This document shows positions 13,879 to 57,731 of a stretch of 64,000 nucleotides of DNA, piece by piece. The notes below the pieces were generated by a model, which did not search any database, had not been told where the DNA came from, and saw nothing but the letters and a program-made list of their open reading frames with translations. The position numbers were made by a program, and so were the translations under genes. The stretch's first letter is position 1, and each line of letters begins with the position of its first letter. The stretch comes from Kiritimatiellia bacterium (GTDB taxonomy: Bacteria; Verrucomicrobiota; Kiritimatiellia; WLWN01). The stretch spans positions 1,676,538-1,740,537 of the forward strand of contig WLWN01000001.1 of the NCBI GenBank assembly GCA_012103575.1. The letters run 5' to 3'.

Positions 13879-15042
13879 GGTGGACTTTCTAATATGACAC
13901 GCCTATAGAAGACAAAAAAAAGAGAAAGACATGGAACAAATCAAGAGTAGTATTCATCCCCGAAAAGGCAAGCATTTGACACAGAAAGAACGGATCATGA
14001 TTGAAACAATGCTCAAAAACCGAGGACGTCCTTTGGAGATAGCCAGCTATCTGGGAAGGCATCGTCGAACCATAGAGCGCGAAATTAAACGTGGGGAGGT
14101 AGAGCATTTCGATACAGAGCTGCGAAAGAAGAAAGCATACAGCAGTGATCGAGCCCAGGAACTTCATGATCTAAATGCGACGGCCAAGGGACCTGAGCTT
14201 AAGCTTGGAAAGCATCATGAAACGGCCGTGTTTATCAGCGAGCACATTCTTGTTCACAAACGCTCACCCGATGTGGTTGCTCCTTTGCTTAAACAAGAGC
14301 AGAGACCTGCAGCGGTGAGTACAAAAACGCTGTATACCTATATTGACCAAGGTCTCATCCCGGGGGTGAGCAACGAGTCCCTATGGGAAAAACGAAAACG
14401 GATAAAACGAAAAAGACGTGCTATTAAGCGGGTTAAAAAGCAACATGCCCGAAGGACCAGTATCGAAAAACGACCTAAGACCGTAGAAAAACGCGAGGAA
14501 TCTGGGCACTGGGAATTGGATTTGATCGTCGGCGGAAAAGGAACTTCAAAACCGGTTTTAATGACGTTAGTAGAAAGAAAGACCCGAATGCTAAGGGTGA
14601 GAAAACTTTCGGATAAAACACAGGCATCGGTTCTGCAGGCCCTCAAAGCGATCGAAAGATCGATGGGAGTTGGCCCATTCAGATCGATGTTCAAGTCGAT
14701 TACAGCCGATAACGGGAGCGAGTTTCTCGACGTGGAGCAGATGGAACGTTCCGGATTTAGCAAAAAGAGACGTGTTAAACTCTATTATGCTCACCCGTAT
14801 TCTTCCTGGGAACGAGGCTCCAACGAAAATGCCAACCGTATGGTTTGTCGTTTCGTCGCCAAAGGAGACAACATCGGAAAATATACCATCGACCGTATTG
14901 GTGAGATTGAAAAATGGATTAACAACTATCCTCGCAAGATCCTAGAATACAAACCCGCACAGGAGTGTTTCGATTTGGAGATCGCCGCATGAACAGAAGC
15001 TCTCAGGTCCATTTTTTGCGGCATTTAATTTTACAATCCACC
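13879..15042 (+). mobile_element. IS30-family insertion sequence, type B, copy 1
   Basis: Second copy at 42077-43284. The shared right end is ...GCATTTAATTTTACAATCCACC. The left terminus keeps only GGTGGA of the IR; about 45 bp are missing relative to copy 2. Confidence 0.75.
13931..14992 (+). CDS. IS30-family transposase, type B (353 aa)
   Basis: HTH (ERIMIETMLKNRGRPLEIASYLGRHRRTIEREI), HWELD, DNGSEF, ERGSNENANRM, NNYPRKILEYKP. It carries a 15-bp insertion (IKRKR) relative to the copy at 42188. Confidence 0.85.
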   Translation: MEQIKSSIHPRKGKHLTQKERIMIETMLKNRGRPLEIASYLGRHRRTIEREIKRGEVEHFDTELRKKKAYSSDRAQELHDLNATAKGPELKLGKHHETAVFISEHILVHKRSPDVVAPLLKQEQRPAAVSTKTLYTYIDQGLIPGVSNESLWEKRKRIKRKRRAIKRVKKQHARRTSIEKRPKTVEKREESGHWELDLIVGGKGTSKPVLMTLVERKTRMLRVRKLSDKTQASVLQALKAIERSMGVGPFRSMFKSITADNGSEFLDVEQMERSGFSKKRRVKLYYAHPYSSWERGSNENANRMVCRFVAKGDNIGKYTIDRIGEIEKWINNYPRKILEYKPAQECFDLEIAA

Positions 15043-17379: not shown

Positions 17380-19037
17380 CCTGAATCCGTTAGCTATCGC
17401 TTCGGAAGGCGTTTTGGGGCTCAAAAGCTGAAAATTTTTTCCTTGAGATGCTCGCTTTTGGGCGGATTGGGACCGGCAAGTATCACCCTGATGAATTTTT
17501 TGAGCGTACAGGTCAGATTCACTCTGATTTGGCCATTTTGGGGCGTAGGCCTCCTTGGGCAGTCGCCTTAGAGTATTGTTAAAGGTGCACGGAGGGCTAT
17601 GCGAAGGAATGGGCAATATCTTGTATCACTTCAAACCAGCGACAACGCTTGCCAAAGTGAAGTTCAATTCGTCCGGCGTGGCGGACCAATCGAACCGCGC
17701 AATAAACGATATTTTTGAGAACCGTTTTGATTCGCCAGCGCGGGATGTTGATTTTCTGCGGGGCAAGCCCAGCCCGTTTGATGACCTCTTGGCCAAGACC
17801 GCGCAATAGGTTGAAGGCCACCATGGCGCATAACAGAATAATCTTATTGGCACAGGGTCTCCCCGAAGGCAATCGCTCAACATCAAGATCGCTTTTGAGT
17901 TCACTGTGGTACTGCTCGCTGGGGCCATGTCCATGATAGAGATCTAGCACCGTCTTGGCACGACAAGAGAGGTTCGTCCACCAGGTGTTCACCTCAAGTT
18001 TAGGAACCAAAAGTTTCTGACCATCGATATCGATGGTGCGTTCAATCACTTCGAAGGCCACCGGGACACAAGGGTGGTTTTGGTCACCACCGGGATGGAA
18101 ATGATCGAAAAAGCCTGTGTAAACGTTCTTGCCTTCACGACTGTCTTGTTTGTCTCCAACTCGGCGTGCAAGGGCCAGCATTTGTTCAGGACATTCGCGG
18201 CGAGGATTTCGCTTTACGATAAAATAATGATCCCCAAAAGCGTCGAAGTTATCGGCCGCAGCGTTGCCACTATCAAGCCGAAGCAAACATTTTCCACCCA
18301 GGCCCAGGGTTTGGAGCGTTTCAACGCTGCGGGCAATAAACGCGGTCGTTCCCGACTGACAATGTTGTTTGCCGGGTCGAAGTTCGCACTCAAGCATGTG
18401 GCCTTGAGTGCCCACATAGGCAAATATCGGGGCGTAACCATCATGGCCCTTATAGGTGTAGGAAACGCCTTCTTTCGAAGAGCCTGAGTGATCCAAAGGG
18501 CTCACATCGATATCGACGGGAACAAGATCAAGCCCTTCGACATCTACCTAGCCAAAGGGGCCCGAGGAAAGAAGTTCGGTGTTGAGTTTGCGTAGCCCCA
18601 CATGGGTTCTGGCTGGGGGCAGGTCGTCGAAACGACGTCGGAACACCGGCTCAGAGGCTACTTTTTTAACTCCCCTTTTTAAGTCTAAAGGCATTCATAA
18701 AAATCTCATCACCCCGGTACAGGTCGATATCATTGAAATCGGTTCGACCGTTGCAAAGTAAGCCGATCTGGGTAAGGAGGATCTCCCGATCAGAGATCGC
18801 ATCGGAGCGGCGTGGTTGAAAATTGGAGGGAAGAATCCGTTGAGCATGATCCTCAAGCAGCAGGCCGCAAAGATGATTTCCGCTTGTGCTGTTGAGTTCG
18901 CTCTTGCCAGTCTTTATTTTATATTGTTTCATATACACACCTGTTGGGGTGGGGTTGTTTGTTTGAATACGGGTATGCTCCCCGCTTTAGCCCAACAGGT
19001 AATGAAAAATCGTCAGATTTTATCTGACGGATTCAGG
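17380..19037 (-). mobile_element. IS1380-family insertion sequence, copy 1 (1658 bp)
   Basis: Termini are CCTGAATCCGT(C/T)AG inverted repeats. A perfect 5-bp direct repeat ATTGA flanks it at 17375-17379 and 19038-19042. A second 1658-bp copy lies at 56074-57731. Confidence 0.9.
17597..18938 (-). pseudogene. IS1380-family transposase, interrupted (frame change after ...AFRLKKGS, in-frame TAG at 18548-18550)
   Basis: The N-terminal 90-aa ORF (18666-18938), a middle segment KKVASEPVFRRRFDDLPP...GPFG*VDVEGL, and the C-terminal ORF 17597-18505 (SYTYKGHDGYAPIFAY...RLDSGNAAADNF) are colinear but not in one frame. Confidence 0.8.
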
Positions 19038-37972: not shown

Positions 37973-39238
37973 ATGAGTTACAACAAAATTGAAGTTCCTG
38001 AAAACGGCGAAAAGATTGCCATGGGAGATGATACGTATCTTCAGGTCCCCCATCATCCCATTATCCCTTTTATTGAAGGGGATGGTACGGGGAAAGATCT
38101 CACTCATGCAGCCATGCTTGTATGGAATGCGGCCGTTGAAAAAGCATACGGAGGGACCCGTCAGGTTCAATGGATGGAAGTCTATGCCGGGGAAAAAGCA
38201 AACGAAGTCTATGGTGAACCCATCTGGTTACCTCCCGAAACATTAGAAGCGGTCAAAGAATTTCTTGTAGCCATTAAAGGGCCTTTAACCACACCCGTAG
38301 GTGGTGGGATACAAAGTCTAAATGTGGCCTTACGCCAAGAACTTGATCTTTATGTATGTTTACGTCCTGTACGTTGGTTCAAAGGGGTTCCCTCCCCTGT
38401 CAAAAATCCTGAACGTACGGACATGGTTATTTTTCGTGAAAACTCTGAGGACATTTATGCGGGTGTAGAGTGGGAAGAAGGAACGTCAGAAGTTAGAAAA
38501 GTTATTGACTTTTTACAACAAGAAATGGGTGTTAAAAAAATTCGTTTCCCTGAAACTTCAGGGATTGGCATAAAACCGGTTTCTAAAGAAGGAACGACTC
38601 GTTTAAATAAAGCCGCTATTCAATATGCCATTGATAACAATCGTAAATCCGTGACGCTTGTTCATAAAGGGAATATTATGAAGTTTACCGAGGGCGCTTT
38701 TTGCGACTGGGGATATGAAACCGCTAAAACCCATTTTGGAGCTCAAGACCTTGATGGCGGTCCTTGGCAAGTCATTAAAAACCCAAGCACAGGTGAGAAC
38801 ATTATAATTAAAGACGTTATTGCAGATGCCTTTTTGCAGCAAATTCTTACTCGCCCAGCTGAATATGATGTGATCGCTACCATGAACCTAAACGGAGACT
38901 ATATTTCTGATGCGCTAGCCGCTTGTGTTGGAGGGATAGGAATTGCGCCAGGCGCAAACATTAACTATGAAACAGGGGTGTCAATCTTTGAAGCAACTCA
39001 TGGTACGGCGCCCAAATATGCCGGGCAAGATAAAGTCAATCCTGGTTCCCTTATTTTATCCGGGGCTATGATGTTTCGTTATATGAGGTGGCAAGAGGCG
39101 GCGGATCTTACTATCACCGGGATCGAAAAGACCATTAGTAATAAGACCGTAACATACGATTTCGAACGATTGATGGAGGGAGCTACGTTGCTCAAATGCA
39201 GTGAATTTGGTCAAGCGATTGTCGATAACATGGAATAA
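37973..39238 (+). CDS. icd: NADP-dependent isocitrate dehydrogenase (homodimeric type)
   Basis: [47 protein letters not shown] prefer the start at [15 protein letters not shown] by colinearity with E. coli Icd. Confidence 0.93.
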
Positions 39239-39281
39239 TCCCAAATTTGGAATCTAGGTCTATTCGTTATCGGTTATTAGG

Positions 39282-39815
39282 GTGCTTCAAAGGAATAAAG
39301 ACATAACATTGGATATGGAAAAAAAATCCGATAGCCCTTTTTTCTCCCCAGATGCCATGCAGGAGGAAAGGGAAAATCTACGAGCTCAGAATAAAACCGT
39401 TGTATTCACGAATGGCTGTTTCGATATCCTGCATGTGGGCCATGTTTCCTATCTCTCCTTTGCAAAACAGCAAGGGGATATTCTGATTGTCGGCCTAAAT
39501 TCTGATCAATCTATTAAACGTATAAAAGGGGTCTATCGTCCCGTTGTCTCTGAAAAGGATCGTGCATCCGTTCTCTTGGCGCTCGAATCTGTAGATTATG
39601 TCATTATCTTTAATGAAGAAGAGCCGGCATCACTAATCGAGCTATTACTCCCTGATGTCCTTGTTAAAGGGGAAGATTGGGCCCATTATGTAAGCGGGCG
39701 AGGTGTTGTCGAAGCAAATGGGGGGTGTGTAGTTCTTGCGCCCATGGTTAAAGGACATTCGTCTAGCGACATTATAGAGCGCATCCAAAAATACTATGGC
39801 GCTGGGCCGCGTTAA
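39282..39815 (+). CDS. D-glycero-beta-D-manno-heptose 1-phosphate adenylyltransferase (RfaE/HldE domain II type)
   Basis: Cytidylyltransferase fold with TNGCFDILHVGHVSYL and LIVGLNSD. The true start may be the ATG at 39315. Confidence 0.8.
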   Translation: MLQRNKDITLDMEKKSDSPFFSPDAMQEERENLRAQNKTVVFTNGCFDILHVGHVSYLSFAKQQGDILIVGLNSDQSIKRIKGVYRPVVSEKDRASVLLALESVDYVIIFNEEEPASLIELLLPDVLVKGEDWAHYVSGRGVVEANGGCVVLAPMVKGHSSSDIIERIQKYYGAGPR

Positions 39816-39908
39816 TACATATAGACGCGGTAGTCGGTAGGTTTATTGCTCGGTTGGAACCCATACTTCAAGAATTGGAAAGCGTTTAACTAGGTTCTGT
39901 CCTGAAAC

Positions 39909-41288
39909 TCACCTATTGGCGGGGAGTTCAACAAGTTGATATCCCAATTCTTTTGCCGTCTTTGCCATAGAAAAAAACCGTCTGGCCTTAAAACGTTCTT
40001 GGTAGACTTTTTCCCCCTCGTCTACATAATCTTGTCCGTAATGCAGCGTTCGATAAATGAGTATGGCCAGTTTACGTGCAAGAGCAAATACGGCCACGGC
40101 TCCACTCCTACGCCGAGCTACCCGACGATATTCAGCCCCCAAAGAGGAGTGTGATCGACTCAAAGAAACCACCGCCATTCGCAAGATTCCAGCCACCCGA
40201 TTTGAACCCGTACCACGAGGGGGCTTTTTCTTGAGAGCTTTTCCTCCAGAAATCCCCATCTTTGGACAAAGCCTCAACCAACTCACAAAATGTTTTTTCG
40301 AAGAAAAATCACTCAGATTAAATCCCACCTCGGTAAGTATGACTTGCGAAACTCCAGCGCTTATCCCGTCAATACGCGTTAAATCTACTCCGGAAAATTG
40401 CCACAATATTTTTTGGTCTTCCTGCTCTCCTCGGTTACGTATCGCTTTTCGTTTAGCGGCTTTAGGATGCTCAGGGGCCTCTTTATTTTTCCGTTCTTGC
40501 GGAGTCATCGCTAACAACTCCTTGTGCAGTTCTTGCTCGTAATCGGTAATCTGTGCTTGGAGTTGGTCATAGAGCTTTAGGGCCATTTTAAGGTTAAACA
40601 AATGCTCTGATTTCCACGTACCGGTGAGGTGCTCAGCTATTTCTTTTTCGTTTTTTCCGCAACGAGAATCTCGCAAACACGCAAGGACTTTGGGGTCACG
40701 TTGACCTTCAACAATCCCACGTACAATCGCTAAGCCTGTTTTCCCGGTAATATCTGTTAGGGCTCGATGAACTTGGACATTCATTTGATCCAAAGCCTTT
40801 TGCATCCAGTTGACGGTTTTGGAACGTTCCTTAACCAGATTGGCACATTGGCGAGTCAATGCGCGGCATCTACAAATGCCTTCACTCGGTCGAAAGGATC
40901 CATGTAATAGGCCACAGCTGTGTAGAAGCTGAATCCATTGACAGTCCTGTACATCGGTTTTACGACCCGGGACATGGCACAGTTCTCTGGCGTTGACCAA
41001 GATGGGCTCTATTCCAGAAGCCTCCAGCAGTTCGTACAAAGGGATCCAGTAAATCCCTGTACTTTCCATGGCCACCGACTTTACTCCTTGCTCTTGGAGC
41101 CAAGCGATCAGTCCGATTAATTGGGGTGTAGTGGATTGAAAAACACGCACGTTGGGTTCGCCGCTGATCAAGGCCGGACCACATACGTAATGCTCGCAAG
41201 CCCCCAAATCAATTCCAGCCACCTTCGGTTGGAGTATGGGTAAGCTTTGCACGGATCGTTTATTTACCTTTGTTTTTGATGCCGACAT
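39909..41288 (-). CDS. IS110-family DEDD transposase/recombinase (459 aa, intact)
   Basis: N-terminal RuvC-like VAGIDLGACEHYV and VAMESTGIYWIPLYELL. C-terminal domain with LTRIDGISAGVSQVILTEVG and the FVSWLRLCP....SGGK block. Confidence 0.9.
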   Translation of the reverse strand: MSASKTKVNKRSVQSLPILQPKVAGIDLGACEHYVCGPALISGEPNVRVFQSTTPQLIGLIAWLQEQGVKSVAMESTGIYWIPLYELLEASGIEPILVNARELCHVPGRKTDVQDCQWIQLLHSCGLLHGSFRPSEGICRCRALTRQCANLVKERSKTVNWMQKALDQMNVQVHRALTDITGKTGLAIVRGIVEGQRDPKVLACLRDSRCGKNEKEIAEHLTGTWKSEHLFNLKMALKLYDQLQAQITDYEQELHKELLAMTPQERKNKEAPEHPKAAKRKAIRNRGEQEDQKILWQFSGVDLTRIDGISAGVSQVILTEVGFNLSDFSSKKHFVSWLRLCPKMGISGGKALKKKPPRGTGSNRVAGILRMAVVSLSRSHSSLGAEYRRVARRRSGAVAVFALARKLAILIYRTLHYGQDYVDEGEKVYQERFKARRFFSMAKTAKELGYQLVELPANR

Positions 41289-41543
41289 GATATCCTCCGG
41301 GTTGTGGTTAGTTGTGGAGGCTACGGCCCGAGGTGGCTATACAATGGATTCTGTCCTGGGGGAGTCGCCTGGAGCGCTCGCCAATGAATGATGGCCAACT
41401 CAGACCCAAACTTCGTATGGGGCACAAGGCACCAATATCTTTAGGGGGGCTTAACTGCCGTAGCTTTCATGACATTTACACCTTACCGGACTCCAGTTTC
41501 AACCCTGAATGATCCAGCAAAGAGACCATGCTGGTGGCGAAAC
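41289..41543 (-). ncRNA. Candidate bridge (guide) RNA region in the 5' non-coding end of the IS110-family element
   Basis: A 255-nt non-coding leader lies upstream of the recombinase ATG. A 10-nt segment TTCTGTCCTG (41349-41358) is repeated 4 nt beyond the recombinase stop codon (39895-39904). The call is inferred from the published IS110 bridge-RNA architecture; I did not fold or model it. Confidence 0.35.
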
Positions 41544-42031
41544 TTCGGGGAGACTCTGTGCCAATAAGATTATTCTGTTATGCGCCATGGTGGCCTTCAA
41601 CCTATTGCGCGGTCTTGGCCAAGAGGTCATCAAACGGGCTGGGCTTGCCCCGCAGAAAATCAACATCCCGCGCTGGCGAATCAAAACGGTTCTCAAAAAT
41701 ATCGTTTATTGCGCGGTTCGATTGGTCCGCCACGCCGGACGAATTGAACTTCACTTTGGCAAGCGTTGTCGCTGGTTTGAAGTGATACAAGATATTGCCC
41801 ATTCCTTCGCATAGCCCTCCGTGCACCTTTAACAATACTCTAAGGCGACTGCCCAAGGAGGCCTACGCCCCAAAATGGCCAAATCAGAGTGAATCTGACC
41901 TGTACGCTCAAAAAATTCATCAGGGTGATACTTGCCGGTCCGAATCCGCCCAAAAGCGAGCATCTCAAGGAAAAAATTTTCAACTTTTGAGCCCCAAAAC
42001 GCCTTCCGAAGCGATAGCTGACGGATTCAGG
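41544..42031 (+). mobile_element. IS1380-family element, 3' remnant (about 488 bp), truncated at the IS110 junction
   Basis: Near-identical to 57244-57731, including the right terminus ..GCGATAGCTGACGGATTCAGG. It encodes only the last ~90 aa of the transposase (..RLCANKIILLCAMVAF...IQDIAHSFA). Confidence 0.85.
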
Positions 42032-42076
42032 ATATTGCTATTTTTCAAAAAGTCAATTTTTTGTTTCAAAAAAATC

Positions 42077-43284
42077 TGAGAATTGTAATATTAAATGCCC
42101 AAAAGAAGATATTGTAAAACAGGAGTGTTCCATGCCGAAATCTTCTAGATTTAGAAACTCGACAGAAGACAAAAAAAGGAGAAAGACATGGAACAAATCA
42201 AGAGTAGTATTCATCCCCGAAAAGGCAAGCATTTGACACAGAAAGAACGGATCATGATTGAAACAATGCTCAAAAACCCAGGACGTCCTTTGGAGATAGC
42301 TAGCTATCTGGGAAGGCATCGTCGAACCATAGAGCGCGAAATTAGACGTGGAGAGGTAGAGCATTTCGATACAGAGCTGCGAAAGAAGAAAGCATACAGC
42401 AGTGATCGAGCCCAGGAACTTCATGATCTAAATGCGACGGCCAAGGGACCTGAGCTTAAGCTTGGAAAGCATCATGAAACGGCCGTGTTTATCAGCGAGC
42501 ACATTCTTGTTCACAAACGCTCACCCGATGTGGTTGCTCCTTTGCTTAAACAAGAGCAGAGACCTGCAGCGGTGAGTACAAAAACGCTGTATACCTATAT
42601 TGACCAAGGTCTCATCCCGGGGGTGAGCAACGAGTCCCTATGGGAAAAACGAAAAAGACGTGCTATTAAGCGGGTTAAAAAGCAACATGCCCGAAGGACC
42701 AGCATCGAAAAACGACCTAAGACCGTAGAAAAACGCGAGGAATCTGGGCACTGGGAATTGGATTTGATCGTCGGCGGAAAAGGAACTTCAAAACCGGTTT
42801 TAATGACGTTAGTAGAAAGAAAGACCCGAATGCTAAGGGTGAGAAAACTTTCGGATAAAACACAGGCATCGGTTCTGCAGGCCCTCAAAGCGATCGAAAG
42901 ATCGATGGGAGTTGGCCCATTCAGATCGATGTTCAAGTCGATTATAGCCGATAACGGGAGCGAGTTTCTCGACGTGGAGCAGATGGAACGTTCCGGATTT
43001 AGCAAAAAGAGACGTGTTAAACTCTATTATGCTCACCCGTATTCTTCCTGGGAACGAGGCTCCAACGAAAATGCCAACCGTATGGTTCGTCGTTTCGTCG
43101 CCAAAGGAGACAACATCAGAAAATATACCATCGACCGTATTGGTGAGATTGAAAAATGGATTAATAACTATCCTCGCAAGATCCTAGAATACAAACCCGC
43201 ACAGGAGTGTTTCGATTTGGAGATCGCCGCATGAACAGAAGCTCTCAGGTCCATTTTTTGCGGCATTTAATTTTACAATCCACC
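42077..43284 (+). mobile_element. IS30-family insertion sequence, type B, copy 2 (both IRs present)
   Basis: The left IR TGAGAATTGTAATATTAAATGCCC matches the inverted right end GGTGGATTGTAAAATTAAATGCCG. The right end lies 5 bp before the recR start codon. Confidence 0.8.
42188..43234 (+). CDS. IS30-family transposase, type B (348 aa)
   Basis: Same protein as 13931-14992, minus the 5-aa IKRKR insertion and with a few substitutions. Confidence 0.85.
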   Translation: MEQIKSSIHPRKGKHLTQKERIMIETMLKNPGRPLEIASYLGRHRRTIEREIRRGEVEHFDTELRKKKAYSSDRAQELHDLNATAKGPELKLGKHHETAVFISEHILVHKRSPDVVAPLLKQEQRPAAVSTKTLYTYIDQGLIPGVSNESLWEKRKRRAIKRVKKQHARRTSIEKRPKTVEKREESGHWELDLIVGGKGTSKPVLMTLVERKTRMLRVRKLSDKTQASVLQALKAIERSMGVGPFRSMFKSIIADNGSEFLDVEQMERSGFSKKRRVKLYYAHPYSSWERGSNENANRMVRRFVAKGDNIRKYTIDRIGEIEKWINNYPRKILEYKPAQECFDLEIAA

Positions 43285-56073: not shown

Positions 56074-57731
56074 CCTGAATCCGTCAGATAAAATCTGATG
56101 ATTTTTCATTACCTGTTGGGCTAAAGCGGGGAGCATACCCGTATTCAAACAAACAACCCCACCCCAACAGGTGTGTATATGAAACAATATAAAATAAAGA
56201 CTGGCAAGGGCGAACTCAACAGCACAAGCGGAAATCATCTTTGCGACCTGCTGCTTGAGGATCATGCTCAACGGATTCTTCCCTCCAATTTTCAACCACG
56301 CCGCTCCGATGCGATCTCTGATCGGGAGATCCTCCTTACCCAGATCGGCTTACTTTGCAACGGTCGAACCGATTTCAATGATATCGACCTGTACCGGGGT
56401 GATGAGATTTTTATGAATGCCTTTGGACTTAAAAAGGGGAGTTAAAAAGGTAGCCTCTGAGCCGATGTTCCGACGTCGTTTCGACGACCTGCCCCCACCC
56501 AGAACCCATGTGGGGCTACGCAAACTCAACACCGAACTTCTTTCCTCGGGCCCCTTTGGCTAGGTAGATGTCGAAGGGCTTGATCTTGTTCCCGTCGATA
56601 TCGATGTGAGCCCTTTGGATCACTCAGGCTCTTCGAAAGAAGGCGTTTCCTACACCTAGAAGGGCCATGATGGTTACGCCCTGATATTTGCCTATGTGGG
56701 CACTCAAGGCCACATGCTTGAGTGCGAACTTCGACCCGGTAAACAACATTGTCAGTCGGGAACGACCGCGTTTATTGCCCGCAGCGTTGAAACGCTCCAA
56801 ACCCTGGGCCTGGGTGGAAAATGTTTGCTTCGGCTTGATAGTGGCAACGCTGCGGCCGATAACTTCGACGCTTTTGGGGATCATTATTTTATCGTAAAGC
56901 GAAATCCTCGCCGCGAATACCCTGAACAAATGCTGGCCCTTGCACGCCGAGTTGGAGACAAACAAGACAGTCGTGAAGGCAAGAACGTTTACACAGGCTT
57001 TTTCGGTCATTTCCATCCCGGTGGTGACCAAAACCGCCCTTGTGTCCCGGTGGCCTTCGAAGTGATTGAACGCACTATCGATATCGATGGTCAGAAACTT
57101 CTGGTTCCTAAACTTGAGGTGAACACCTGGTGGACGAACCTCTCTTGTCGTGCCAAGACGGTGCTAGATCTCTATCATGGACATGGCCCCAGCGAGCAGT
57201 ACCACAGTGAACTCAAAAGCGATCTTGATGTTGAGCGATTGCCTTCGGGGAGACTCTGTGCCAATAAGATTATTCTGTTATGCGCCATGGTGGCCTTCAA
57301 CCTATTGCGCGGTCTTGGCCAAGAGGTCATCAAACGGGCTGGGCTTGCCCCGCAGAAAATCAACATCCCGCGCTGGCGAATCAAAACGGTTCTCAAAAAT
57401 ATCGTTTATTGCGCGGTTCGATTGGTCCGCCACGCCGGACGAATTGAACTTCACTTTGGCAAGCGTTGTCGCTGGTTTGAAGTGATACAAGATATTGCCC
57501 ATTCCTTCGCATAGCCCTCCGTGCACCTTTAACAATACTCTAAGGCGACTGCCCAAGGAGGCTTACGCCCCAAAATGGTCAAATCAGAGTGAATCTGACC
57601 TGTACGCTCAAAAAATTCATCAGGGTGATACTTGCCGGTCCCAATCCGCCCAAAAGCGAGCATCTCAAGGAAAAAATTTTCAACTTTTGAGCCCCAAAAC
57701 GCCTTCCGAAGCGATAGCTGACGGATTCAGA
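56074..57731 (+). mobile_element. IS1380-family insertion sequence, copy 2 (1658 bp)
   Basis: CCTGAATCCGTCAGATAAAATC ... GCTGACGGATTCAGa, with the terminal G replaced by A. A 5-bp direct repeat TTAGA flanks it at 56069-56073 and 57732-57736. Confidence 0.9.
56173..57514 (+). pseudogene. IS1380-family transposase, interrupted (same frame change and TAG as copy 1, plus an extra TAG)
   Basis: Frame change after ..AFGLKKGS*, TAG at 56561-56563 (GPFG*VDVEG), and an additional SYT*KGHDGY where copy 1 has SYTYKGHDGY. Confidence 0.8.

What the first reader, a model, noticed from the sequence alone, without database searches (positions are those of the whole stretch)
41289..41543. IS110-family element with a 255-nt 5' leader: candidate bridge RNA, with a 10-nt segment repeated at the opposite end
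IS110-group recombinases are known to use a structured non-coding bridge RNA encoded in the non-coding end upstream of the recombinase gene. Its internal loops base-pair with target and donor DNA. Here an intact 459-aa DEDD/serine recombinase gene (39909-41288, minus strand) is preceded by 255 nt of non-coding sequence reaching the junction with IS1380-derived DNA. Within that leader, TTCTGTCCTG (41349-41358) is repeated exactly at 39895-39904, 4 nt beyond the stop codon. Such a repeat is what a donor-binding guide matching the element's other end would look like. Immediately adjacent, GGGGAGTC (41358-41365) resembles the flanking target GGGGAGAC (41548-41555). I did not fold the RNA, so this remains an inference.
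Basis: partly seen in the sequence, partly recalled or inferred. Interest (0 to 1): 0.55.

Follow-up and report, generated by a model that had tools for sequence, protein, structure and literature searches.

The report
Bridge RNA gene of an IS110-family element
The 254-base stretch upstream of this mobile element's recombinase gene very probably encodes a guide ("bridge") RNA that reads both the element's own end and its insertion site; this is a known mechanism, here in a little-studied branch with an unusual layout.

Summary
The window carries a 1.65-kb IS110-family element on the minus strand (41542..39899), flanked by the dinucleotide AG. Its recombinase is intact and the host genome has at least 8 copies.

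About 106 relatives share the leader. It has a closing helix and two stem-loops with large internal loops, and four helices are supported by compensatory changes. A covariance model built only from relatives finds this leader alone in 64 kb (69 bits, E=3e-17).

In 84 of 86 relatives the equivalent 7-mer equals that element's own right end, against 0.1% in swapped pairs.

It is AUACGAAG (41418-41411). In relatives this block equals the left flank plus AG in 79% of loci, against 4% swapped.

A 4-nt right-target guide is supported family-wide. No right-donor guide was found.

This copy sits in poorly matching, recombinant flanks.

The target guides run in IS1111-type order although the RNA lies upstream as in the IS110 type. 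A covarying 6-9 bp subterminal inverted repeat is also present. No expression data exist.

The parts
39899..41542 (-). IS110-family insertion sequence. It is 1644 bp, or 1646 bp counting one copy of the AG core. The left end (LE) starts at 41542 and the right end (RE) finishes at 39899.
   Evidence: The LE boundary is fixed from both sides. L081 is 99.9% identical up to 41547 and then differs. Uninterrupted IS1380 copies are identical down to 41543 and then differ. The RE boundary comes from the family-wide rule 'GTTTC-N5-AG at or just after the stop codon' and from the donor-guide match.
41543..41544 (-). Core dinucleotide AG at the left junction (end of the left target).
   Evidence: AG is invariant in the target-guide block and at the left junctions of relatives. 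The empty site reads CCCCGA-AG-GCAATCG.
39897..39898 (-). Core dinucleotide AG at the right junction.
   Evidence: In the closest relatives the match between donor guide and RE stops at AG. AG is invariant in alignments A1 and A3.
39909..41288 (-). Recombinase gene, 459 aa, with a DEDD domain and a Tnp domain.
   Evidence: PF01548, PF02371 and NF033542. D27, E75, D112 and D115 are invariant in 86 relatives, and S347 is S or T throughout. S347 aligns with the serine of the ESG motif of IS621. That this is the catalytic S241 described in PMC11208158 is my inference.
41316..41467 (-). Conserved bridge-RNA core. Closing helix P1 (41464-41457 with 41327-41320) encloses the target-binding and donor-binding stem-loops.
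   Evidence: Covariance-model hit, 69 bits, E=3.2e-17. Folds. P1 shows many compensatory variants.
41404..41450 (-). Target-binding stem-loop. Its outer stem is 41450-41447 with 41407-41404, and its inner hairpin is about 41434-41418 in the folds. The inner pairing register is uncertain and partly overlaps the first base of the target guide.
   Evidence: The outer stem is paired in 60 of 60 sequences with covariation. Pair types at its first three positions are GU 43/GC 13/AU 4, AU 45/GU 10/GC 3/CG 2, and CG 56/UA 4. The inner hairpin is conserved but shows no covariation, so it is neither supported nor contradicted.
41411..41418 (-). Left target guide (LTG), AUACGAAG, same sense as left target plus core. 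The next three bases, UUU (41410-41408), equal the first bases of the LE.
   Evidence: In relatives this block equals the left flank plus AG at 7 of 8 or more positions in 57 of 72 loci, against 4% with swapped partners. L081's flank CTACGAAG matches at 7 of 8. The window's flank CCCCGAAG matches at 5 of 8. The first LE base equals the base after the guide's AG in 91% of loci (MI 1.18 bits).
41437..41440 (-). Right target guide (RTG), assigned by homology: AGAU, the 4 nt before the conserved AUUGG.
   Evidence: Family-wide, these 4 nt pair with the core G plus right-flank bases 1-3. Pairing at those three flank positions is 69/68/60% against about 41% swapped, with z of 5.8/5.1/3.8. In this copy neither known right flank (AAC, or GCA in the empty site) pairs beyond G·U, so the assignment here is weak.
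41351..41358 (-). Left donor guide (LDG), CAGGACAG. The last two (AA, 41350-41349) have no family-wide counterpart.
   Evidence: The guide 7-mer matches the element's own RE exactly in 84 of 86 relatives, against 0.1% swapped. It covaries: AGGACAG, GGGTCAG, AGGTTAG, AGATGAG, TTAAGAG, TGAGCAG and others.
39897..39904 (-). Right end of the IS plus core (left donor), CAGGACAG. This is the DNA partner of the donor guide.
41362..41379 (-). Inner hairpin of the donor-binding stem-loop (GAGCGC-UCCAG-GCGaCUC).
   Evidence: The two base pairs at its foot are paired in 60 of 60 sequences, one with AU 31/GC 29. The upper stem differs in sequence but stays complementary in L001, L082, L083 and L002.
41328..41403 (-). 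Donor-binding stem-loop. Its outer stem is 41403-41399 with 41332-41328, extended by 41397-41394 with 41337-41334.
   Evidence: The outer stem is paired in 90% of cells with compensatory changes (AU 17/GC 11/GU 3/CG 2, and AU 24/GC 5/GU 4/CG 2). The extension is poorly supported in the MAFFT alignment (49%).
41495..41500 (-). LE arm of a subterminal inverted repeat, GAAACT, 43 nt inside the LE and 5' of the RNA core.
   Evidence: It is complementary to the RE arm and covaries with it across the family.
39904..39909 (-). RE arm of the subterminal inverted repeat, AGTTTC. It abuts and overlaps the left donor and also overlaps the stop codon.
   Evidence: Covarying examples are majority AGTTTCTT/AAGAAACT, L083 GGGTCTC/GAGACCC, L002 GGGGTCAC/GTGACCCC, plus GGTTTC/GAAACC and TGTTTC/GAAACA variants.
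41514..41534 (-). Hairpin near the LE tip (CCAGCA-N9-UGCUGG). Relatives have a variable hairpin at the same place.
   Evidence: fold. The LE starts of relatives are listed. Its function is unknown.
41545..42030 (+). Truncated IS1380-family element, forming the left flank of the IS110 element.
   Evidence: NF033539 C-terminal match. It is 99% identical to two other copies at 57245-57730 and 17380-17866.

Best explanation
The 254-nt left end of a 1.65-kb IS110-family insertion sequence encodes a bridge RNA (also called seekRNA) that the element's DEDD/Ser recombinase uses to choose its DNA partners.

Structure. The conserved RNA core is about 150 nt (41467-41316, minus strand). A closing helix encloses two stem-loops, each with a large internal loop.

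Target loop. Its 3' side is AUACGAAG, the same sense as left target plus the AG core, so it would pair with the bottom strand. One to three further bases match the start of the element. A short segment on the 5' side would pair with the top strand at the core G plus about three right-flank bases.

Donor loop. Its 3' side is CAGGACAG, identical to the last bases of the element plus AG. [quoted passage not shown]

Reaction. Recombination at AG then inserts the element without a target duplication, leaving AG on both sides.

What is shown: the recombinase family and its catalytic residues, the exact ends, the conserved fold with compensatory changes, and the family-wide covariation of three guides with flank or end.

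What is inferred: that the region is transcribed, that the RNA binds the recombinase, that a circular intermediate forms, and the strand-exchange chemistry. These are taken by analogy with IS621 and ISEc21.

This particular copy lies between non-cognate, recombined flanks.
For: Protein..

Ends..

Leader homology. 106 relatives share it.

Out-of-sample model. One hit in the window, 69 bits, E=3.2e-17.

Fold.. Compensatory changes: target-loop stem 100% paired, donor-loop stem 90% and hairpin foot 100%, with an overall covariation score of 0.156 against 0.098 in shuffles (0 of 500 reach it) and at most 0.086 with slid partners. Closing helix.

Donor guide equals own right end in 84 of 86 relatives, against 0.1% swapped.

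Target guide equals left flank at 7 of 8 or more positions in 79% of loci, against 4% swapped.

Right target guide: z of 3.8-5.8.

The first LE base tracks the base after the guide's core: 91% identity, MI 1.18 bits.

Two independent left flanks of this very IS, L081's and the IS1380 one, share only CGAAG. These are the five bases next to and including the core in the guide.

Copy number. The protein cluster has nine members, seven or more of them on the one 3.1-Mb contig. At least three genes encode intact 459-aa proteins: two accessions are identical to the window's protein and one further 459-aa member is present.

The guide logic is that of PMC11208160 and PMC11187229.
Against: There are no expression or RNA-binding data.

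The single-sequence folding energy is no better than shuffles (z of +0.57 and -0.55).

No sigma-70-like promoter is found on the minus strand of the left end.

No right donor guide could be identified. No leader column complements the first bases of the left end.

The inner hairpin of the target loop is conserved but without covariation, and one stem extension is only 49% paired.

In this copy the left flank matches the target guide at only 5 of 8 positions. Neither candidate right flank pairs with the presumed right target guide.

The left-junction positions used for the target-guide statistics were located by searching for the guide, so identity at those columns is partly circular. The swapped-partner control addresses this.
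Confidence: 0.87

Rival explanations
1. The conserved leader motifs act as DNA, not RNA. On this reading the internal copies of the end and flank sequences are subterminal protein-binding or synapsis sites for the recombinase, and the leader is otherwise just the 5' UTR and promoter of the recombinase gene.
For: A covarying subterminal inverted repeat exists (AGTTTC/GAAACT), and it could work at the DNA level. No transcript evidence exists. No promoter was found.
Against: Four helices keep pairing through compensatory changes on both sides. That is expected for a folded RNA, not for protein-binding DNA sites. The guide blocks sit in the internal loops of that fold. Two distant family members are experimentally RNA-guided (PMC11208160, PMC11187229).
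Confidence: 0.06
2. The 10-nt repeat is a chance match in an ordinary untranslated leader, with no guide function.
For: Exact 10-12-nt direct repeats occur elsewhere in the same 2 kb, and about two are expected by chance. Single-sequence folding is unremarkable.
Against: The same relation holds in 84 of 86 relatives with different sequences, against 0.1% for swapped partners. A structure-and-sequence model built without this window finds only this site in 64 kb.
Confidence: 0.01
3. The RNA gene is intact but this copy is stranded. After recombination between IS copies it lies between flanks that no longer match its guides, so it may excise poorly and serve mainly as a template for bridge RNA and recombinase acting on other copies.
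For: The uninterrupted IS1380 site predicts the right flank GCAATCG, but the window has AACCTAG. L081 joins the same right flank to a different left flank. The left flank matches the guide at 5 of 8 positions. Siddiquee et al. found that matching flanks around the donor are needed for circle formation (PMC11187229, as excerpted).
Against: Half-matched sites are reported as common and usable for IS110 elements (abstract of bioRxiv 10.64898/2026.08.14.744561). L081 comes from a short-read assembly and could be chimeric across the repeat.
Confidence: 0.4

Closest known systems
IS621 bridge RNA and recombinase (IS110 group; Durrant et al. 2024, PMC11208160; Hiraizumi et al. 2024, PMC11208158)
   Same: Both have a DEDD domain plus a Tnp domain with a hydroxyl nucleophile. 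The RNA is encoded in a long left end upstream of the recombinase gene, with a very short right end. The RNA has two stem-loops with internal loops, one for target and one for donor. Sense guides cover left target plus core and left donor plus core, and a short antisense guide covers core plus right target. A core dinucleotide is present on both sides, with no target duplication.
   Different: The protein is barely alignable (phmmer E=5e-4, partial) and is 459 aa against 326 aa for IS621 (length from my own knowledge). The core is AG, not CT. In the target loop the antisense guide is 5' and the sense guide 3' of the inner hairpin, which is the opposite order. The donor sense guide is likewise on the 3' side. 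One closing helix encloses both stem-loops. The cross-match to the other DNA partner extends the sense target guide; in IS621 the handshake bases extend the antisense guides. The subterminal inverted repeat is 6-9 bp with its left arm about 43 nt inside the element, against 2-3 bp flanking the donor in IS621. No right donor guide was found.
ISEc21 seekRNA (IS110 type; Siddiquee et al. 2024, PMC11187229)
   Same: The non-coding region lies upstream of the transposase gene. [quoted passage not shown] Natural reprogramming is seen among relatives.
   Different: In ISEc21 the bottom-strand match precedes the top-strand match. Here the top-strand match comes first. The proteins are nearly unrelated by BLASTP (E=4e-4 over 53 aa).
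IS1111-type seekRNAs and bridge RNAs (ISEc11, ISKpn4, ISPa11; PMC11187229, PMC11208160)
   Same: The order of target matches is the same, with the top-strand complement 5' of the bottom-strand match. A recognisable subterminal inverted repeat is present.
   Different: [quoted passage not shown] Here it is upstream and the right end has only 10 non-coding bases. The repeat is at the short end of the 7-17 bp range. Protein relatedness to IS1111 was not tested directly. A tblastn search of 72,556 plasmids at E≤1e-3 matched only 402 records. IS1111-type elements such as IS5075 are, from my own knowledge, common on plasmids, so this hints at no close relation.

Membership tests
IS110 family in the broad sense (RNA-guided DEDD recombinase elements) | N-terminal DEDD (RuvC-like) domain with the four acidic residues | tested here: met
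   PF01548 E=9.5e-20. NF033542 at 221 bits against a cut-off of 140. D27, E75, D112 and D115 are invariant in 86 relatives.
IS110 family in the broad sense (RNA-guided DEDD recombinase elements) | C-terminal Tnp domain with a catalytic serine | tested here: met
   PF02371 E=3.5e-9. S347 is S in 70 and T in 16 of 86 relatives, within an invariant I-S/T-G-G motif. It aligns with the serine of the ESG motif of IS621.
IS110 family in the broad sense (RNA-guided DEDD recombinase elements) | A long non-coding end that encodes a structured RNA with internal loops | tested here: met
   254-nt left end. Folds. Compensatory changes. Out-of-sample covariance-model hit.
IS110 family in the broad sense (RNA-guided DEDD recombinase elements) | Loop segments that covary with target flanks and with the element's own ends | tested here: met
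   Left donor guide 84 of 86 against 0.1% swapped. Left target guide 79% against 4% swapped. Right target guide z of 3.8-5.8. The right donor guide was not found.
IS110 family in the broad sense (RNA-guided DEDD recombinase elements) | Insertion without target duplication, with the same core dinucleotide on both sides | tested here: met
   AG lies at 41544-41543 and at 39898-39897. The empty site has a single AG. AG is invariant across the alignments A1 and A3; the Citrobacter plasmid relative, which is outside those alignments, appears to use AA.
IS110 family in the broad sense (RNA-guided DEDD recombinase elements) | The RNA is expressed, binds the recombinase and is required for circle formation and insertion | not testable with these tools
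   This needs RNA sequencing, pull-down and transposition assays.
IS110 group in the narrow sense (IS621- and ISEc21-like) | Non-coding region and RNA upstream of the recombinase gene, with LE much longer than RE | tested here: met
   The LE is 254 nt and the RE has 10 nt after the stop codon.
IS110 group in the narrow sense (IS621- and ISEc21-like) | The bottom-strand (left) target guide lies 5' of the top-strand (right) target guide | tested here: not met
   Here the right target guide (41440-41437) is 5' of the left target guide (41418-41411), family-wide. The order in IS621 is from my recollection of its sequence, and the order in ISEc21 is from PMC11187229.
IS110 group in the narrow sense (IS621- and ISEc21-like) | Subterminal inverted repeat absent or only 2-3 bp | tested here: not met
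   A 6-9 bp covarying repeat is present.
IS1111 group | Long non-coding region and RNA downstream of the transposase gene | tested here: not met
   Only 10 nt follow the stop codon inside the element.
IS1111 group | Subterminal inverted repeats of 7-17 bp | tested here: inconclusive
   The repeat is 6-9 bp, depending on the relative (7 bp in the window: AGTTTCA/TGAAACT), and it covaries. Its left arm lies about 43 nt inside the element. Whether that is typical of IS1111 elements I could not check.
IS1111 group | The top-strand target match lies 5' of the bottom-strand match in the RNA | tested here: met
   The rule itself is from PMC11187229.
IS1111 group | Transposase related over its full length to that of IS1111 | not tested
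   No IS1111-type reference protein could be fetched (one search failed). The only evidence is the indirect hint.

The most novel reading that the evidence does not exclude
This element and its 100 or more relatives, found in Verrucomicrobiota, Chloroflexota, Bacteroidota, Acidobacteriota and on Citrobacter and Enterobacter plasmids, may form an uncharacterised third architectural class of IS110-family guide RNAs. The RNA is encoded upstream like the IS110 type, but its target guides run in IS1111-type order. Both sense guides sit on the 3' side of their loops, and one closing helix encloses both loops. The core is AG. The cross-match to the donor lies on the sense target guide. A covarying 6-9 bp inverted repeat has a left arm that lies 5' of the RNA core and is complementary to the DNA immediately beside, and overlapping, the left donor. 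[quoted passage not shown]
Probability: 0.3. Interest if true: 0.6.

Novelty: new member of a known kind. Interest (0 to 1): 0.45.

Why it matters
Bridge and seek RNAs make IS110-family recombinases programmable tools for inserting, deleting and inverting DNA. So far only a few closely related systems have been characterised.

This finding adds a well-delimited element from an uncultured Kiritimatiellae genome, with exact ends, core, guides and fold. It also brings a family of more than 100 naturally reprogrammed relatives whose recombinase is almost unrelated in sequence to IS621 and ISEc21.

The family gives a ready-made natural specificity table of guide against flank. [quoted passage not shown]

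For genome annotation, it shows that the leader of such elements is a gene and should not be read as spacer. It also shows that this copy marks an IS-mediated rearrangement.

Tried and rejected
Rfam. The permissive scan of 38500-43000 gave only noise. The control on the proven ISEc21 region gave nothing either. The library therefore does not detect this kind of RNA and the negative carries no weight.

Single-sequence folding energy. It is not better than shuffles. That is uninformative for RNAs with large internal loops.

Promoter and terminator scan. Nothing was found on the minus strand of the left end. The consensus may not apply to this phylum.

Other copies of this IS in the same genome. 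Five exact-protein look-ups were not on record. The genome-collection scan did not contain this MAG. The other flanks could therefore not be compiled.

GGGGAGTC as a target guide. Rejected: it is a hairpin arm plus a conserved C-run.

'GAA' as the core (my first guess). Rejected: in the closest relatives the matches stop at AG.

An alternative in which the first AG (in AGTTTC) is the crossover point. Rejected: the left junctions of relatives do not begin with TTTC.

Right donor guide. I searched by mutual information and by eye in the 5' side of the donor loop and found nothing.

RNAalifold on the 37-sequence HMM alignment. It gave a poor structure because the closing helix was misaligned. A per-sequence check replaced it.

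Predicted target ATACGAAGTCT in the window. It shows no enrichment: 14 hits with up to 2 mismatches against 14.7 expected.

Fetching ISEc11 as an IS1111-type reference failed.
Full report
**What is there**

The window comes from a Kiritimatiellae metagenome-assembled genome. The exact protein is deposited as NKB24459.1 and NKB25187.1 on a 3.1-Mb contig. Its 90%-identity cluster has nine members, seven or more of them on that contig.

The ORF at 39909-41288 on the minus strand encodes 459 aa. It matches PF01548 (DEDD_Tnp_IS110), PF02371 and NCBIfam NF033542, 'IS110 family RNA-guided transposase', at 221 bits against a cut-off of 140. In 86 relatives D27, E75, D112 and D115 are invariant, and S347 is always S or T within an I-S/T-G-G motif. 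S347 aligns with the serine of the ESG motif of IS621.

The protein is only marginally similar to the two experimentally studied upstream-RNA elements. Against IS621 phmmer gives E=5e-4 over part of the sequence. Against ISEc21 BLASTP gives E=4e-4 over 53 residues.

**The ends of the element**

All sequences below are written in the element's orientation, which is the window's minus strand.

A contig from another assembly (L081, GCA_012267705.1) is 99.9% identical to the window from 36909 up to 41547, and is unrelated beyond that.

The left flank in the window is the last ~68 codons of an IS1380-family transposase. Two other IS1380 copies lie in the window, at 57245-57730 and 17380-17866, and are 99% identical to that flank. 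They continue uninterrupted as …TCTCCCCGAAG|GCAATCGCTC…, whereas the window reads …TCTCCCCGAAG|TTTCGCCACC….

The left end of the IS therefore starts at 41542, directly after AG at 41544-41543. The five bases CGAAG, shared by the two independent left flanks, belong to the target and not to the element.

At the other end the stop codon TGA (39911-39909) is followed by GTTTCAGGAC-AG-AACCTAG. Relatives show the same pattern, GTTTC-N5-AG at or just after the stop codon. This places the right end at 39899 and a second AG at 39898-39897.

The element is thus 1644 bp plus the core. It has a 254-nt left non-coding end and only 10 non-coding bases on the right. Many relatives were assembled as separate contigs of 1.6-1.9 kb, which fits this size.

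TTCTGTCCTG occurs exactly twice in the window, at the stated coordinates. As an isolated repeat it would not be significant, because the same 2 kb holds other exact 10-12-nt repeats.

The leaders of the closest relatives (50-59% protein identity) align with the window's leader at the nucleotide level. Where the window has CAGGACAG they carry different bases, and each version reappears at that element's own right end:

- L001: GGGTCAG
- L082: CAGGTTAG
- L083: CAGATGAG
- L002: AGATGAG

In the three relatives L082, L083 and L002 the match stops at AG; L001 matches one base further.

Iterative profile searching shows that 106 of about 150 homologous loci share this leader. The 7-mer at this position matches the element's own right end exactly in 84 of 86 loci. 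With partners swapped among loci that carry different 7-mers, the rate is 0.1%.

The remaining two bases (AA) have no family-wide counterpart and are probably chance.

**The target guide**

A second block has the same design: TGCCC(C/G)-N6-AG-NN-TGG. In the window it reads AUACGAAG (41418-41411) followed by UUU.

In relatives the 8-mer equals the sequence just outside the left end at 7 of 8 or more positions in 57 of 72 loci. With swapped partners the rate is 4%, and no swapped pair reaches 8 of 8. The matches lie 245-330 nt upstream of the start codon, compared with 263 nt here.

For this IS, L081's flank CTACGAAG matches at 7 of 8 positions. The IS1380 flank CCCCGAAG matches at 5 of 8.

A result that does not depend on how the junctions were located concerns the first base of the element. 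It equals the base following the guide's AG in 91% of loci (MI 1.18 bits). The sense target guide therefore reads across the finished left junction. This resembles the handshake principle of IS621 (PMC11208158), although in IS621 the handshake bases extend the antisense guides.

It is the 3' arm of a hairpin whose stem changes in sequence but stays complementary in relatives, followed by a conserved C-run.

**A short antisense target guide**

The four bases before a conserved A(A/U)UGG pair with the core G plus the first three right-flank bases. Pairing at those three flank positions is 69, 68 and 60% of loci against about 41% for swapped partners, with z of 5.8, 5.1 and 3.8. The G itself pairs in 88%.

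In the window this segment is AGAU (41440-41437). It pairs with neither the actual right flank (AAC) nor the right flank of the IS1380 empty site (GCA) beyond a G·U pair. The assignment in this copy therefore rests on homology only.

**The fold**

The minimum-free-energy fold of 41466-41316 and RNAalifold on the five closest relatives agree. They give:

- a closing helix (41464-41457 with 41327-41320);
- a target stem-loop with outer stem 41450-41447 and 41407-41404, an inner hairpin, and internal-loop sides carrying the antisense and sense target guides;
- a donor stem-loop with outer stem 41403-41399 and 41332-41328, an inner hairpin at 41379-41362, and the donor guide on the 3' side of the loop.

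On a MAFFT alignment of 60 sequences that was not fitted to any structure, the results were as follows:

| Helix | Cells paired | Pair types |
|---|---|---|
| Target outer stem | 100% | GU 43/GC 13/AU 4; AU 45/GU 10/GC 3/CG 2; CG 56/UA 4; fourth pair invariant CG 60 |
| Donor outer stem | 90% | AU 17/GC 11/GU 3/CG 2; AU 24/GC 5/GU 4/CG 2 |
| Foot of the donor hairpin | 100% | AU 31/GC 29 |

The overall covariation score is 0.156 against 0.098 in shuffles, and none of 500 shuffles reaches it. With slid partners it is at most 0.086.

The closing helix is misaligned by one base in that alignment. Checked sequence by sequence, it is 6-10 bp long in every relative and shows many double changes. Examples are GCUACGGC/GCCGUAGC, GUGUUCAGGC/GCCUGAACAC, GGCUUCAGAC/GUCUGAAGCC and UUCGGGGC/GCCCCGGA.

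The inner target hairpin is conserved without covariation, and one stem extension is weak.

A covariance model built from 32 relatives, without this window or L081, finds a single site in the 64-kb window on either strand: 41316-41467 on the minus strand, full length, 69 bits, E=3.2e-17.

Rfam gives nothing here. It also gives nothing on the proven ISEc21 RNA region, so that negative is uninformative.

**What does not fit the IS621 template**

1. No right donor guide was found. No leader column complements the first bases of the left end.

2. The order of the target guides is antisense first and sense second. Siddiquee et al. report this order for IS1111-type seekRNAs, and the opposite for the upstream-encoded ISEc21 (PMC11187229). 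IS621 also has the opposite order, from my recollection of its sequence.

3. A subterminal inverted repeat exists. AGTTTC (39909-39904) directly abuts the donor segment at the right end. GAAACT (41500-41495) lies 43 nt inside the left end, 5' of the RNA core. The repeat covaries:
   - the majority of relatives have AGTTTCTT/AAGAAACT;
   - a second subfamily has AAGTTTCTG/CAGAAACTT;
   - L083 has GGGTCTC/GAGACCC;
   - L002 has GGGGTCAC/GTGACCCC.

   It extends one or two bases into the donor segment. Whether it acts as DNA or as RNA-DNA pairing cannot be decided here.

The family is therefore a secure member of the IS110 family in the broad sense. It fits neither recognised subgroup cleanly, as set out in the membership table.

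**This copy's surroundings**

The IS1380 empty site predicts GCAATCG to the right of the element. Instead the right end is followed by the 80-bp spacer after a heptose-1-phosphate adenylyltransferase gene. L081 joins that same right flank to a different and better-matching left flank.

The simplest reading is recombination between two copies of the IS, or a deletion next to one. L081 could also be a chimeric short-read contig.

Poorly matched or half-matched boundaries are reported as frequent for IS110 elements (abstract of bioRxiv 10.64898/2026.08.14.744561).

**Verdict**

The mechanism is inferred from sequence, structure and covariation, and by analogy to IS621 and ISEc21. Transcription and RNA dependence remain untested.

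It is a new member of a known kind. The guide layout may make the whole clade a distinct variant.

Noticed in passing
window 17380-17866 (minus strand), 57245-57730 (plus strand), 41545-42030 (plus strand): Three copies of the right part of an IS1380-family element, 99% identical to each other. The copy at 41545 is cut off by the IS110 element. The other two continue and supply the empty-site sequence CCCCGA-AG-GCAATCG (core AG at 57244-57243 and at 17867-17868).
   Followed up: partly
window 42188-43234 and 13931-14992 (blast match 42164-43284 with 13907-15042): Two copies of an IS30-family transposase gene (NF033563, 229 bits), 97.8% identical. One lies next to the IS1380 remnant, so 39.9-43.3 kb is a cluster of three different insertion sequences.
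   Followed up: partly
L081 1-2741 compared with window beyond 41547: Another assembly of the same or a very close organism joins the same IS copy and right flank to a different left flank carrying Band_7 and HhH-GPD genes. This is either an IS-mediated rearrangement between strains or a chimeric contig.
   Followed up: partly
proteins P0123, P0124 and P0001 (other copies in the same genome; no DNA available): Two copies carry an in-frame 56-aa insertion after …DEGEKVY, near the C-terminus. One copy loses the last 6 residues and reads into foreign sequence, so it probably lacks the right end and donor segment. Two further copies (P0125, P0126) are N-terminally shortened.
   Followed up: no
L082 about 30-60 and 1696-1745: In this 1745-bp metagenome contig the right end is followed by AG and then a second, slightly diverged left end (CCGGTGAGACCGGCTGC…). 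This suggests a tandem pair, an insertion next to another copy, or an assembled circle junction.
   Followed up: no
L162 (Citrobacter freundii plasmid pCAV1741-101, NZ_CP011654.1 11789-13129): A relative with 43% protein identity is present on 60 or more Citrobacter, Enterobacter and Klebsiella plasmids. Its leader has the same blocks but appears to use an AA core: guide block GUAAAAAAAC, flank TTAAAAAA|C, right end AGTTTCTCAGT-AA. RefSeq gives it no specific IS name.
   Followed up: partly
window 41495-41500 and 39904-39909, and the same positions in L001-L161: The subterminal inverted repeat covaries and overlaps the first one or two bases of the donor segment, so those bases are matched in sense by the donor guide and in antisense by the left-end arm. 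No known role explains this, given that the left arm sits about 43 nt inside the element.
   Followed up: partly
window 41547-41560 (minus-strand reading): The IS1380 flank reads GGCACAG-AG-TCT eight bases upstream of the junction. This resembles the element's right end (AGGACAG-AG) followed by the right flank predicted from the presumed right target guide (TCT). It is probably coincidence.
   Followed up: no
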